In this document: positions 2,172-5,419 of the stretch, in pieces
Layout of the letters: each line of letters starts with the position of its first letter
How positions within the stretch are numbered: position 1 is the stretch's first letter
Assembly (NCBI RefSeq): GCF_900113675.1
Contig: NZ_FOQE01000011.1
Coordinates: 1-24,000, forward strand
Source of the DNA: Pisciglobus halotolerans
GTDB taxonomy: Bacteria; Bacillota; Bacilli; Lactobacillales; Carnobacteriaceae
Direction of reading: 5' to 3'
DNA length: 24,000 bases
The notes under the pieces: generated by a model
What the model was told of the DNA's origin: nothing
Database searches by the model: none
What the model saw: the letters and a program-made list of their open reading frames with translations, nothing else
Position numbers and translations under genes: made by a program

Positions 2172-2267
2172 TTTTTTGTGCGAATAAAGGGATATCTTGA
2201 TCAAACCAAAAAAACAGAATCATTCGGTTCGCAAGAGAGACATGAACTATCTCATGAAGAGAAAATT

Positions 2268-2276
2268 TGCTATAAT
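2268..2276 (+). promoter_or_regulatory. Extended -10 promoter element upstream of recJ
   Basis: TGcTATAAT at 2268-2276. No good -35. It lies 23 nt upstream of the proposed TTG start and before the GGGAG RBS (2286-2290). Confidence 0.4.
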
Positions 2277-2298
2277 AACAGAGTTGGGAGTGAAAAAG

Positions 2299-2581
2299 TT
2301 GATTAAATCTCATAAAGAATGGCATTCGGCCATGGAACAATATGACGAAGAAAAAATAACTCAATTGAGTCAGCAATTACAGTATTCTCCACTTTTTATT
2401 TCTCTTTGTCTGCAAAGAGGACTAGATTCGGAAGAGAAAATTAAGCAATTTGTTTGTCCTGATGATACAAAAACAATAAATGATCCTTTTTTGATGCATG
2501 ATATGCAGAATGCAGTAGAACGAATTCACCAAGCAATCGAAATGGGAGAAAGAGTGACAGTTTACGGAGATTATGACGCGG
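2299..2581 (+). CDS. recJ: Single-stranded-DNA-specific exonuclease RecJ, exon 1 (joined to 3360..5419 after intron removal)
   Basis: In frame with ORF 2197..2625. The proposed start is TTG 2299, 8 nt after GGGAG, because the upstream part of the ORF overlaps the promoter and MITE flank. The N-terminus LIKSHKEW...SPLFISLCLQRGL...NDPFLMHDM...VTVYGDYDA matches RecJ. The reading frame degenerates right after 2581 (GATRSQV...stop). Confidence 0.85.
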
Positions 2582-3276
2582 GTGCGACACGTTCGCAAGT
2601 GAAAAGCTTGCGCACCTCTTTTTAAAAAAATAGGGAGAACTGATCAAGTAAAAGCTGGAATGATGGCGTAACGTCCTGAAACAGCTTCCCTGATCCTCCG
2701 ATATGCGATTGAAAGGTAAAATTCAAACGTATAAAGCTCGGTAAAGTCAGCTGAGAGAAGCCGTAAATAAAGAATACTTCTTTATACGAAAAAGATCTAG
2801 GTCTCGCTTCCTATAGGCTGGGGGTCTCATAAATTATCTAAGGCTAGTATGTTTCTTTGTAGAAACTGACGAATCTTTGAATGTACAGGTCGATAAGTAA
2901 AAGATGCAGAAATGCATGGTTGGGATCGATGAAAAAAGATCCTTTTGCACGTGGCGGAGTAAAATTGCGCGTTATGAAATGCCATATCGTTTCATGGGAG
3001 CGATCAAGTGCAACGGTCTATAGAAGAAGCCTAAGGATATATAGCAGTAGATAACTTGATTGGAACGTGGAAAGCTTGGAATGCAGATATCATTACCGAT
3101 AAATGAAGCAGTTTAGACGAAAAAACCAGTAGGGTACAATAAGCTAATTGATCCAAGTGAAAGTAGAGCCACAGTACCGTTGAAGCTGTGATAATAAACA
3201 GTGGAGGGATAGGCTCGAGTCGAACCTTGATTTTATTCGAGAAATAGCTCATTTAAAAGCAAATAGATTCGATAGA

Positions 3277-3310
3277 ACGCCGTGTGAGATGAAAGTCTCC
3301 TGCACGGTGT
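3277..3310 (+). ncRNA. Group II intron domain V (catalytic hairpin)
   Basis: ACGCCGUGU-GAGAU-GAAA-GUCUC-CU-GCACGGUGU. It has a 9-bp lower helix, a 2-nt 3'-side bulge, a 5-bp upper helix and a GNRA loop. The triad position reads CGC. Confidence 0.9.
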
Positions 3311-3312
3311 GG

Positions 3313-3357
3313 AGCGGGGGAAAATCTGGAGATTATTTCAAAAGATTACCTATCGCT
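3313..3357 (+). ncRNA. Group II intron domain VI with branch-point adenosine
   Basis: AGCGGGGG (3313-3320) pairs with CCU-A-UCGCU (3349-3357), leaving A3352 unpaired 8 nt from the 3' splice site. Inner stem AAUCU (3323-3327) pairs with AGAUU (3343-3347). Confidence 0.8.
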
Positions 3358-3359
3358 AT

Positions 3360-5419
3360 ACGGTGTAACAAGTACAGCTGTCTTAGTGGAGACACTAGAA
3401 ATGATGGGTGCAGACGTCCATTTTTACATTCCTAATCGTTTTACAGACGGTTATGGACCAAATATTGAAGCCTTCAAAAAAATCATTGAAGAAGGAACGA
3501 ATTTAATCGTGACTTGTGATAACGGGGTTTCTGGGCATGACGCCATTCAAGAGGCGACAAAAATGGGTGTAGAAGTTATTGTGACAGATCACCACGAAAT
3601 GCCCGAAGTTTTACCTGAAGCTTATGCTATTGTACATCCTCGTCATCCTGAAGGACAATATCCTTTTGGAGACCTAGCGGGAGTGGGGGTTGCTTTTAAA
3701 CTAGCAACAGCTTTGTTGGGAGAAGCCCCAATCGAATGTATGGATCTCGTTGCAATTGGTACGATTGCTGACCTCGTATCACTAAGAGAAGAAAACCGTG
3801 CTTTAGTGATTCACGGATTAGAAGTGTTAAGGAATACGGAACGTGTTGGTTTGGATGCTTTATATAAATCAGCAGGAGTCAAAAAGAACGAAATAGATGA
3901 AGGGTCTATTGGTTTTGCAGTTGCTCCTAGATTAAATGCTGTAGGTAGGCTGGGAGACGCTTCCCCAGCTGTTCAATTGTTAACCACTTTTGATCAGGCG
4001 AAAGCAGAACAAACAGCTCATCTCATCGAACAAAAAAATCACGACCGAAAAAAATATGTGAAAGAAATAACAGCTGAAGTTTTGGAAATGATCGAAAAAG
4101 GACCAGAAGAACAAGCAGTATATGTTTTAGCTAAGGAAAATTGGCATGAGGGCGTTTTAGGGATCGTAGCTAGTAAAGTAGTAGAAAAAACTGGAAAGCC
4201 GGCAATCATTTTAAACATCGATAAAGAAAAAGGAGTAGCTAAAGGGTCTGGAAGAAGTGTATCATCGCTTCATCTTTATCAAGCTTTAGACTCGATCCGT
4301 TCATTAATGGAAGCTTTTGGCGGACATCACATGGCGGCAGGGCTATCTATTCAACCTGAAAATATTGATCTCTTGCGACAACAGTTAAATGAATATGCTG
4401 CTTCCAATGGAATGGCAGATCAAAGGAAAGAAGAAGTAGAAATAACGGCTTTATTAAAACCAGAAGAATGTACGATTCAAACTGTTGAAGAAATCAAAAA
4501 ACTGGCTCCATTTGGAACGGATAATCCTTTTCCAAACTTTCTAATACAAGATGCAACAGTAAATGAAATAAGACAAATAGGTGCAGACCGAACGCATCTT
4601 AAGATGACACTGCAATATGGCGATAAGACATTAGACACCATTGGTTTTGGTTTTGGAAATTATGGAGAATGGATCAACCAAAATACAACCTTGTCTCTTA
4701 TAGGACAATTGACGATCAACGAGTGGAGAGGCGTTAAAAAGGTTCAAATAAGGTTGGAAGATCTGAAAGTTGAAGAGTTGCAGTATTTTGATTTCAGGGG
4801 AGGACACGTTCCAGACAACATTTGGAAACTATCGCACACTGGATATTTATTTTTTGATCCAACTATTGCTCAACAATTGGCTTTTAAAATTTCTTCAGAA
4901 AACAATATGTATCTTGTTGAGAAAAATAGTGATGTCGAAACCTTGCCAATAAATGAATTTGAACGTTTCGTATTGGTCGATTGTCCGCCAACGTTGGACC
5001 TTCTTCAACAAACATTGCAGAAAATCAATGCAAATAATATTCTCTATATTTTTCATTCGCAAAAAAATGCCTATTTAGAAGGAATACCCAGCAGAGAACA
5101 ATTTGCAACAGTCTATAAATTCTTGGCTTCTCATCGTAATATCGATGTACGTAATCAGCTGAAGTTACTGGCAAAAACATTAAAAGTGAAAGAAAAGCGT
5201 TTAATTTTTATTATTTCGGTGTTTTTTGAAGTGGGATTTGTTAAAATAGAAGACGGCATCTTAAACTATCGAAAGGATGCACCAAAAACAGATTTAACAA
5301 CATCACATACTTATCAAAAAAGACAGCTGCAGATCGAAACAGAAGAAGCACTGCTATTTAGTCATTCCTCTGATGTAGAAGGCTGGTTAGATCATCAGAT
5401 GAATGGTATGGAAAATTGA
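3360..5419 (+). CDS. recJ: Single-stranded-DNA-specific exonuclease RecJ, exon 2
   Basis: AC (3360-3361) completes the split Asp codon G|AC. GGT GTA ACA... then continues in the frame of ORF 3386..5419. DHH/DHHA1 motifs are present (YIPNRFTDGYGPN, VTCDNG, VTDHH, GGHHMAAG). Combined length is 780 aa. Confidence 0.9.

What the first reader, a model, noticed from the sequence alone, without database searches (positions are those of the whole stretch)
2582..3359. ORF-less group II intron splits recJ inside the catalytic DHH motif
The ORF track breaks RecJ into 2197..2625 and 3386..5419. In the DNA, exon 1 runs ...GTT TAC GGA GAT TAT GAC GCG G, with its last nucleotide at 2581. The next bases are GTGCG (2582-2586), matching the group II 5' consensus GUGYG. 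The insert ends ...ATCGCTAT at 3359 (consensus AY). It is followed by AC GGT GTA ACA AGT ACA GCT GTC TTA GTG GAG ACA CTA GAA ATG ATG. Removing exactly 2582-3359 (778 nt) restores the frame. The joined product reads VTVYGDYDADGVTSTAVLVETLEMMGADVHFYIPNRFTDGYGPN, the uninterrupted RecJ/DHH motif region. The split codon is an Asp of the DxD motif (G|AC). The bases flanking the two junctions differ, so the boundaries cannot slide. Domain V (3277-3310) is textbook and ends 49 nt before the 3' splice site. Domain VI (3313-3357) leaves A3352 unpaired at the canonical branch position, 8 nt from the 3' end. Bacterial group II introns usually sit in mobile DNA or intergenic sites. One embedded in the catalytic motif of a conserved repair exonuclease makes RecJ production splicing-dependent.
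Basis: partly seen in the sequence, partly recalled or inferred. Interest (0 to 1): 0.9.

Follow-up and report, generated by a model that had tools for sequence, protein, structure and literature searches.

The report
ORF-less group II intron in recJ
The DNA-repair gene recJ of Pisciglobus halotolerans is split inside its catalytic motif by a 778-base self-splicing-type (group II) intron that has lost its own protein gene, one of several independent such losses in an intron lineage that targets this exact recJ site in many Bacillota.

Summary
Window 2582-3359 matches two Rfam group II intron models: D1-D4 at 146 bits (E 9e-33) and D5/D6 at 60 bits (E 1e-9). Removing exactly these 778 nt restores a 780-aa RecJ that aligns without a gap to solved RecJ across VYGDYDADGVT.

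The host is Pisciglobus halotolerans (Carnobacteriaceae). The locus is core chromosome, and three assemblies of the species all carry the intron.

The intron is a IIB-type ribozyme with no intron-encoded protein (IEP). It is not an isolated oddity. At least 20 recJ genes carry a homologous intron at the identical site and codon phase. They come from Carnobacterium, Sporosarcina, Lysinibacillus and metagenomes. Their introns form a series:
- intact 630-aa reverse transcriptase/maturase, about 2.77 kb;
- decayed ORF;
- ORF-less (778-937 nt), lost independently several times.

The ribozyme and both exons remain under purifying selection. The window keeps 159 of 178 consensus pairs, with 23 double compensatory changes, and exon 1 dN/dS is about 0.12. 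RecJ therefore almost certainly depends on splicing.

Whether splicing is autonomous or needs a trans-acting maturase is unresolved. This is a new member of a known kind, of moderate to high interest as a natural series of intron domestication in bacteria.

The parts
2299..2581 (+). recJ exon 1 (94 codons plus the first base of the Asp codon). The start at TTG 2299 is inferred.
   Evidence: GGGAG lies 11 nt upstream. The N-terminus LIKSHKEW resembles the MLKSR.. starts of relatives.
2571..2574 (+). IBS2 (UUAU, exon positions -11 to -8)
   Evidence: Complementary to GUAA at 2897-2900. The register was fixed by family covariation.
2575..2581 (+). IBS1 (GACGCGG, exon positions -7 to -1)
   Evidence: Complementary to the EBS1 loop at 2966-2973.
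2582..3359 (+). ORF-less group II (IIB-type) intron, 778 nt
   Evidence: Rfam RF02004 and RF00029. Exact excision restores RecJ. Homologous introns sit at the same site in at least 20 recJ genes.
2582..2586 (+). 5' splice-site consensus GUGCG
   Evidence: Conserved in all recJ introns.
2588..3069 (+). Domain I
   Evidence: Consensus fold of the ORF-containing relatives projected on the window. The RF02004 match covers 2635-2832.
2896..2900 (+). EBS2 (AGUAA; GUAA pairs with exon -8 to -11)
   Evidence: This position after the CUARA motif covaries with exon -7 to -12 in 15 introns at different sites. Table.
2966..2973 (+). EBS1 in the terminal loop (U-GCGCGUU)
   Evidence: Strongest exon-complementarity diagonal in the family. 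There are 6 contiguous bp with exon -2 to -7. Exon -1 pairs only if U2966 is used and G2967 bulges, as in L133 and L128.
3074..3158 (+). Domain II
3166..3216 (+). Domain III
3217..3272 (+). Domain IV remnant (about 55 nt). The roughly 1.9-kb IEP gene is absent.
   Evidence: Alignment A1 against the 2775-nt intron of Carnobacterium sp. TMP28. No tblastn trace of the IEP.
3277..3310 (+). Domain V (34 nt, CGC triad, GAAA loop)
   Evidence: RF00029 alignment. 28 of 29 consensus D5/D6 pairs are kept.
3314..3356 (+). Domain VI with bulged branch-point A3352
   Evidence: RF00029 alignment.
3360..5419 (+). recJ exon 2 (stop codon included)

Best explanation
Window 2582-3359 is a 778-nt group II intron of IIB type that has lost its intron-encoded reverse transcriptase/maturase. 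It sits in the chromosomal recJ gene of Pisciglobus halotolerans, between the first and second base of the second Asp codon of the DHH motif (GDYDA|DG).

It descends from a mobile intron lineage whose homing site is this conserved recJ sequence.

Proposed mechanism:
- The recJ pre-mRNA folds into the ribozyme.
- EBS1 (2966-2973) and EBS2 (2896-2900) hold the 5' exon (IBS1 2575-2581, IBS2 2571-2574).
- The 2'-OH of A3352 attacks the 5' splice site.
- The exons are ligated at 2581/3360 and the lariat is released, giving mRNA for a 780-aa RecJ.

Without an IEP the intron cannot move on its own, so it is now a splicing-only passenger that must work for RecJ to be made.

Shown: ribozyme identity, exact boundaries, homology to ORF-containing introns at the same site, and purifying selection on the ribozyme and on both exons. 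Inferred: splicing in vivo, the branch point, and whether splicing is autonomous or helped by a protein encoded elsewhere.
For: - Rfam hits and restored RecJ.
- The organism and its truncated RecJ annotations were found by exact protein look-up. The context is core chromosome with no RT gene in the 24 kb.
- The same site and phase are occupied in Carnobacterium (L001-L004), in Sporosarcina and Lysinibacillus (L024, L073, L027) and in 15 metagenome loci. The hosts were confirmed as RecJ.
- The lineage shows a graded series: intact IEP (630 aa with RVT_1), IEP broken by stops (L004, L130), and ORF-less (window 778 nt, L001 872, L132 897, L128 937). The D4 remnants are unrelated to each other.
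- The window keeps 159 of 178 consensus D1-D3 pairs, against 161 for ORF-containing L003, and 28 of 29 in D5/D6. Relative to L003 it has 23 double compensatory changes, 13 single-side conservative changes and 9 disruptions.
- The ribozyme is 78-79% identical to the Carnobacterium introns, while synonymous sites of the exons are saturated (pS 0.70).
- Exon 1 dN/dS is 0.12 between two hosts of ORF-less introns.
- EBS2 and its exon partner covary: L003 has CGUAG with UUACG, while L001 and L004 have CAUAG with UUAUG. In the window, the EBS1 base that faces the Ala wobble position is C, matching GCG.
- The intron is present with 1-2 nt differences in three P. halotolerans assemblies.
Against: - There is no RNA evidence of splicing.
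- In the family register the last exon base (G2581) faces G2967, so the -1 pair needs a one-base bulge. EBS2 pairing is only 4 bp. Exon recognition may therefore be weaker than in the mobile relatives.
- D4, including most of the usual IEP-binding region, is gone. I could not search the rest of the genome for a maturase.
- The consensus structure used for pair counting was predicted, not determined.
Confidence: 0.88

Rival explanations
1. The intron still splices, but only with a maturase supplied in trans by a related IEP-encoding group II intron elsewhere in the P. halotolerans genome. This is the usual situation for bacterial ORF-less introns.
For: A review of the field states that bacterial ORF-less introns nearly always co-occur with related IEP-encoding introns (PMC4424553). 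Trans action has been shown in a cyanobacterium (same source). The intron's close relatives encode a maturase.
Against: No RT gene lies in the 24-kb window. No Pisciglobus protein is among the 120 best relatives of the lineage's IEP, all at least 52% identical; many hits are unnamed, so this is weak evidence. The D4 region that normally binds the IEP is reduced to about 55 nt. The IEP was lost independently several times in Carnobacteriaceae, which suggests it is dispensable there.
Confidence: 0.4
2. The intron splices autonomously in vivo, or with general host RNA chaperones, as proposed for C.te.I1 of Clostridium tetani. It is then a fully host-dependent, splicing-only intron.
For: The ribozyme core is fully retained under selection although the IEP is gone. 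IEP loss recurs at this locus. C.te.I1 is a precedent (PMC4424553).
Against: Most group II introns need protein help at physiological Mg2+ (established knowledge). This was not tested here.
Confidence: 0.45
3. recJ is a pseudogene. The insert is a dead intron remnant that no longer splices, and only N-terminally truncated or no RecJ is made, as the database annotations of 672-699 aa proteins imply.
For: Public annotation calls only the exon-2 ORF. The predicted EBS1/IBS1 pairing is imperfect at position -1.
Against: Exon 1 is intact and under purifying selection (dN/dS 0.12-0.26). A truncated product would lack the DxD metal ligands of the DHH motif. Ribozyme pairs are maintained by compensatory changes. 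The same arrangement is conserved in three assemblies and in several genera.
Confidence: 0.05

Closest known systems
B.th.I2 (pAW63, Bacillus thuringiensis) and its relative B.c.I10 of the B. cereus group (B-class introns)
   Same: B.th.I2 is an ORF-less group II intron interrupting a protein-coding gene in frame. Intron positions 575-778 of the window match it at about 80% nt identity in two aligned pieces covering about 20% of the query. B.c.I10 uses EBS1, EBS2 and EBS3 (PMC2504315).
   Different: B.th.I2 lies in a virD4-like gene on a conjugative plasmid that also carries an IEP-encoding intron (PMC1196294). The recJ intron is in a core chromosomal repair gene, is fixed in the species, and has no IEP nearby.
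C.te.I1 of Clostridium tetani
   Same: An ORF-less bacterial group II intron in a coding gene. Its genome has no IEP and it self-splices in vitro (PMC4424553). It is a possible mechanistic analogue.
   Different: C.te.I1 sits in a surface-layer protein gene, splices alternatively and uses a shifted 5' splice site. There is no sign of alternative products here. The IEP status of the P. halotolerans genome is unknown.
Group II intron in recA of Geobacillus kaustophilus (Chee and Takami 2005, cited in PMC2504315)
   Same: A group II intron in a housekeeping recombination/repair gene of a Bacillota chromosome.
   Different: The recA intron keeps its RT ORF. The gene and site are different.
The ORF-containing recJ introns found here (Carnobacterium sp. 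TMP28 CP180212.1, Sporosarcina ureae DSM 2281, Lysinibacillus sp. 38-6)
   Same: Identical insertion site and phase, the same ribozyme family (67-79% nt identity), and the same RF02004 model where it was run, on the Carnobacterium loci; site, phase and identity.
   Different: They are about 2.77 kb and encode a 630-640-aa RT/maturase with an HNH-like C-terminus (PF01844 in some relatives). They are presumably still mobile. I found no paper that describes them.
ORF-less group II introns of plant and algal organelles
   Same: Splicing-only introns in housekeeping genes, descended from mobile introns by IEP loss, and retained because the host gene needs them removed (PMC4424553).
   Different: Organellar introns depend on many nuclear-encoded factors and often have degenerate ribozymes. 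The ribozyme here looks complete.

Membership tests
Group II intron | 5' end GUGYG and 3' end AY | tested here: met
   GUGCG at 2582-2586 and AU at 3358-3359. Conserved across 20 homologues.
Group II intron | Domain V: 34-nt hairpin with catalytic triad, 3'-strand bulge and GNRA loop | tested here: met
   RF00029 alignment at 3277-3310. The triad is CGC with a G.U second pair, and the loop is GAAA. CGC is listed as a usual variant in PMC12350094.
Group II intron | Domain VI with a bulged adenosine 7-8 nt from the 3' splice site | tested here: met
   A3352 lies in the UA bulge of D6.
Group II intron | Domains I-IV matching a curated covariance model | tested here: met
   RF02004, 146.3 bits against a gathering score of 34.5, full model length. 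D1, D2 and D3 helices are retained.
Group II intron | EBS1/IBS1 and EBS2/IBS2 complementarity with the 5' exon | tested here: met
   The positions were fixed by covariation across introns at unrelated sites. In the window, EBS1 forms 6 bp (7 with a one-base bulge) and EBS2 forms 4 bp. Caveat: the -1 pair is not standard in the family register.
Group II intron | Precise removal restores a colinear host gene | tested here: met
Group II intron | Splicing through a 2'-5' lariat | not testable with these tools
   Needs RNA work.
Mobile (retroelement) group II intron | RT/maturase ORF in domain IV | tested here: not met
   The longest open segment in the intron is 58 codons. No IEP remnant by tblastn. 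D4 is about 55 nt. It is therefore filed as an ORF-less derivative, not as a mobile intron.
Subgroup IIB | 4-nt bulge at the epsilon'/lambda region of D1c (criterion quoted in PMC12350094), and use of both EBS1 and EBS2 | tested here: inconclusive
   The Rfam alignment shows a 4-nt bulge (UGAA, followed by AC) at 2677-2680. EBS1 and EBS2 are both present. The nearest named relatives are B-class. EBS3 and delta-delta' were not mapped, and the IEP comparison with solved structures did not discriminate classes.

The most novel reading that the evidence does not exclude
P. halotolerans, and separately C. inhibens-type carnobacteria, have no group II maturase at all. On that reading, a free-living bacterium carries a fixed, inherited, splicing-only group II intron in a core repair gene that splices autonomously or with recruited host factors. 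This would be a bacterial counterpart of the organellar route from retroelement to 'plain' intron. All intermediate stages (intact, decaying and lost IEP) would be preserved at one locus in culturable relatives, possibly with RecJ output tuned by splicing efficiency (salt, temperature or Mg2+).
Probability: 0.3. Interest if true: 0.75.

Novelty: new member of a known kind. Interest (0 to 1): 0.6.

Why it matters
Bacterial group II introns are mostly selfish retroelements outside housekeeping genes. ORF-less derivatives are described as rare and short-lived (PMC4424553).

Here an ORF-less intron is fixed in the catalytic motif of a core repair gene, so RecJ synthesis depends on RNA splicing. 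The same site in related bacteria holds the intron with an intact, a decaying or a lost maturase gene. That gives a natural, culturable series for a long-standing question about the origin of organellar and spliceosomal introns: how a mobile ribozyme becomes a host-dependent, splicing-only intron.

There is also a practical point. Annotation pipelines call N-terminally truncated RecJ proteins (672-699 aa) in Pisciglobus and several Carnobacterium genomes. These products lack the DxD metal ligands and are wrong.

Tried and rejected
- My single genome-contig scan used a D5 pattern that was too loose (ACGCCGTGTG..GAAA..ACGGTGT). It therefore could not show whether other intron copies or IEPs exist in this genome. 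The loci did prove useful for mapping EBS sites and revealed the Sporosarcina and Lysinibacillus recJ introns.
- I first considered UUGCAY at 2945-2950 (UUGCAC in the window) as EBS1. The homologous UUGCAU gives 6 bp in Carnobacterium. The family alignment shows that this segment is not conserved and that exon complementarity lies in the downstream loop, so I rejected it.
- Comparing the lineage's IEP with solved RT/maturase structures did not assign a class: class C, CL and others all scored E of about 1e-45 to 1e-47.
- tblastn of the IEP against the ORF-less introns found no remnants.
- Literature searches for a recJ group II intron, for Carnobacterium, and for the Rfam model name found nothing relevant.
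- The 73-aa minus-strand ORF at 3031-3252 inside the intron was not followed up. The homologous ORF-less introns have no open segment longer than 58 codons on the intron strand, but their minus strands were not checked.
- Exact-protein look-ups failed for C. pleistocenium RecJ and Desemzia RecJ.

Full report
**1. What is in the sequence**

The ORF list breaks a RecJ-like frame into 2197..2625 and 3386..5419. The DNA reads GAT TAT GAC GCG G|GTGCGACACG at 2581/2582 and CCTATCGCTAT|ACGGTGTAACA at 3359/3360.

A scan of the whole window against Rfam at curated thresholds gives only two hits, both on the + strand inside the interval:
- RF02004 (group II D1-D4-5) at 2635-2832: 146.3 bits, E 8.6e-33.
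- RF00029 (D5/D6) at 3275-3359: 59.6 bits, E 1.3e-9.

Both cover their full models. The RF00029 alignment gives these features:
- D5 at 3277-3310: 8 bp + 5 bp, GAAA loop, 3'-strand bulge, triad CGC.
- D6 at about 3314-3356.
- A3352 in the bulge, 7 nt before the last intron base.

Removing 2582-3359 keeps the frame. From the probable start TTG 2299 this gives a 780-aa protein with DHH, DHHA1, RecJ_OB and ssDNA-exonuclease C-terminal domains. It aligns without a gap to RecJ structure 8y30 through VYGDYDADGVT.

An intron-less allele, Carnobacterium maltaromaticum recJ, is colinear with the predicted ligated exons at the DNA level.

**2. Host and context**

Exact protein look-ups identify the organism as Pisciglobus halotolerans (Carnobacteriaceae). 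Its RecJ is deposited as truncated proteins of 672 and 694 aa.

The window is core chromosome: DUF1836, DegV, recJ, apt, lexA, DUF896, tkt, sbcDC, an SNF2 helicase, rpsB, tsf, pyrH, frr, uppS. It holds no reverse transcriptase gene.

Two further assemblies of the species carry the same intron with one or two base differences. It is therefore neither an assembly artefact nor a strain-specific insertion.

**3. The intron belongs to a recJ-homing lineage**

In the protein search, RecJ of the C. inhibens, C. pleistocenium and TMP28 group is annotated as 695-699 aa proteins. These begin ..KGYLSLY|GVTSTAV, which is read-through of an intron 3' end.

Fetching those loci shows the same site and phase (GAT GCA G|GTGCG ... 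CACTAT|AT GG) with three forms of the intron:
- an 872-nt ORF-less intron (L001);
- a 2775-nt intron with an intact 630-aa RVT_1 protein in Carnobacterium sp. TMP28 (L003);
- the same intron with the ORF broken by stops (L004).

Loci collected with a D5 pattern, together with a junction pattern run on metagenomes, add more cases:
- Sporosarcina ureae and a Sporosarcina MAG;
- Lysinibacillus sp. 38-6;
- 15 metagenome contigs, including two short clostridial-type RecJ genes.

All splice to GDYDADG, and Pfam confirms the sampled hosts as RecJ.

Intron sizes fall into two classes:
- 2771-2798 nt, with an open segment of 637-673 codons, or 518 and 148 codons where the ORF is decayed;
- 778-937 nt for the ORF-less forms: window, L001/L002, L132 and L128.

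The ORF-less introns show no tblastn trace of the IEP. Their D4 remnants differ in length and sequence, about 55 nt in the window against about 140 and 155 nt in L001 and L132. This points to independent deletions.

I found no description of a recJ group II intron in the paper library.

**4. Is the ribozyme still functional?**

I predicted a consensus structure from the nine ORF-containing recJ introns. Against it:
- The window keeps 159 of 178 D1-D3 pairs. The ORF-containing Carnobacterium intron L003 keeps 161.
- The window keeps 28 of 29 D5/D6 pairs.
- Of 45 pairs that differ from L003, 23 changed on both sides and still pair, 13 changed on one side and still pair, and 9 are broken.

The ribozyme is 78-79% identical to the Carnobacterium introns, whereas RecJ is 52-54% identical and synonymous sites are saturated.

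Exon 1 would be useless without splicing. Its dN/dS is 0.12 between two hosts of ORF-less introns (L001 and L132, pS 0.58), and it is 0.19 between the window and L001.

These are signatures of selection on both the ribozyme and the split gene. Splicing itself remains an inference.

**5. Exon recognition**

I aligned 25 family members, inserted at about 17 different sites, and scored exon complementarity column by column. Two diagonals stand out:
- a terminal loop (window 2966-2973) pairing with exon positions -1 to -7, which is EBS1;
- the bases after a CUARA motif (window 2896-2900) pairing with exon positions -7 to -12, which is EBS2.

Members at unrelated sites give 5-6 bp perfect matches at both elements.

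Within the recJ lineage, most introns have the loop AAUCUGGCGUU. It is fully complementary only to the Ala codon GCC. It tolerates GCA and GCG either through a mismatch at -2 or through a shifted CUG register.

The window has AAUUGCGCGUU. It forms six contiguous pairs with -2 to -7, including C-G opposite its own GCG wobble base. G2581 (-1) pairs only with U2966 if G2967 bulges. The ORF-containing L133 and the ORF-less L128 show the same architecture, which argues that it works.

EBS2 covaries with the Tyr codon wobble base: CGUAG with UUACG in L003, CAUAG with UUAUG in L001 and L004. In the window it is reduced to four pairs (GUAA with UUAU).

EBS3 and delta-delta' were not mapped.

**6. Class**

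The ribozyme looks IIB-like on three grounds:
- a 4-nt bulge at the epsilon' region in the Rfam alignment (criterion from PMC12350094);
- use of both EBS1 and EBS2;
- about 80% identity over parts of intron positions 575-778 (about 20% of the query) to B.th.I2, the ORF-less intron in the virD4-like gene of pAW63, a relative of the B-class B.c.I10.

The IEP family (about 630 aa, RT plus an HNH-like C-terminus) is common in Sporosarcina, Niallia, Lysinibacillus, Bacillus and clostridia. The class assignment is provisional.

**7. Evolutionary pattern**

Among the Sporosarcina and Lysinibacillus type hosts, ribozymes are 89-97% identical while RecJ is only 48-88% identical. This is the pattern expected for recent horizontal homing of a mobile intron into a conserved target.

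In Carnobacteriaceae, intron divergence tracks host divergence more closely:
- L001 and L132: 86% nt against 84% aa;
- window and Carnobacterium: 78% nt against 53% aa.

The branching order matches the hosts.

Desemzia, C. maltaromaticum and C. divergens lack the intron. Either it was lost several times or it spread early within the family. I cannot decide between these.

**8. Mechanism and open point**

The best-supported account is a splicing-only IIB ribozyme whose removal is required to make RecJ.

Whether it splices alone, like C.te.I1, or uses a maturase encoded elsewhere, the usual bacterial situation (PMC4424553), could not be tested. Recurrent IEP loss at this locus and the near-complete loss of D4 lean slightly towards IEP independence.

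**9. Assessment**

The thing itself belongs to a known kind. ORF-less bacterial group II introns exist, and so do group II introns in repair genes: the Geobacillus recA intron, B.th.I2 and C.te.I1.

The combination found here appears undescribed and offers a tractable model for intron domestication:
- a core repair gene, split inside its catalytic motif;
- fixation in the species;
- a wide recJ-specific lineage;
- repeated maturase loss.

Noticed in passing
L024 126-2897; L027 4648-1878 (minus strand); L073 3727-945 (minus strand); L125-L139: About 2.77-kb group II introns with intact 637-673-aa IEPs occupy the identical recJ site in Sporosarcina ureae DSM 2281, a Sporosarcina MAG, Lysinibacillus sp. 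38-6 and many metagenome contigs. Their ribozymes are 89-97% identical although RecJ is only 48-88% identical. This suggests active horizontal homing into the DHH motif.
   Followed up: partly
L044 5139-4282 (minus strand), Niallia hominis NZ_JBBMFN010000008.1: A related 858-nt ORF-less intron interrupts a Gfo/Idh/MocA-family oxidoreductase at ..GTTTATGACCCAG|ACCCAGAA. This site resembles the recJ target (TATGAYGCNG|AY), so it is probably an ectopic retrotransposition followed by IEP loss.
   Followed up: partly
L020 5923-7214 and L050 2376-3993 (Brevibacillus spp.): Three domain-V-like matches lie on one strand, spaced 620-800 nt apart, in a stretch without long ORFs. Only one per locus reaches the RF00029 threshold. 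There is no D1-D4 hit and no tandem repeat by TRF. They could be tandem degenerate or ORF-less introns, or a D5-containing repeat element.
   Followed up: partly
Public records SFH67293.1 and WP_281246059.1 (P. halotolerans); C. inhibens, C. pleistocenium and Carnobacterium sp. RecJ entries of 695-699 aa (P0031-P0042): RecJ is annotated as an N-terminally truncated protein that starts inside the intron 3' end (..KGYLSLY|GVTS..) or at an internal Met. Exon 1 is called as a separate protein of 107-127 aa with no family hit, or 142 aa in the window's ORF list. This is a systematic misannotation caused by the intron.
   Followed up: yes
L143 2501-3358 (Clostridium baratii plasmid NZ_CP124308.1, 11289-12146): An 858-nt ORF-less relative (66% identity over 94% of the query) lies in a 2.3-kb stretch with no annotated CDS. 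It begins GGGA|GTGCGACACG, so it probably splits an unannotated gene.
   Followed up: no
L129 (metagenome Ga0163217_1008080): The recJ intron here has a strongly decayed IEP (longest open segment 148 codons). Exon 2 begins ATGGGGATTACC, one G more than its near-identical relative L130, which puts a stop 10 codons downstream. This is either a sequencing error or a genuinely dead recJ.
   Followed up: no
L128 7700-7933 (minus strand): A HEARO RNA (RF02033, 130 bits) lies about 1.6 kb from the ORF-less recJ intron on this metagenome contig.
   Followed up: no
Phage hits H32-H37: The D5/D6 end of the intron (last 80-110 nt) matches at 80-84% identity in an Enterococcus phage, Listeria jumbophage LPJP1, Staphylococcus phage MarsHill (under an RNA polymerase beta-prime subunit / homing endonuclease annotation) and three human faecal phage contigs. 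This fits the recent report of group II introns in phages (PMC12350094).
   Followed up: no
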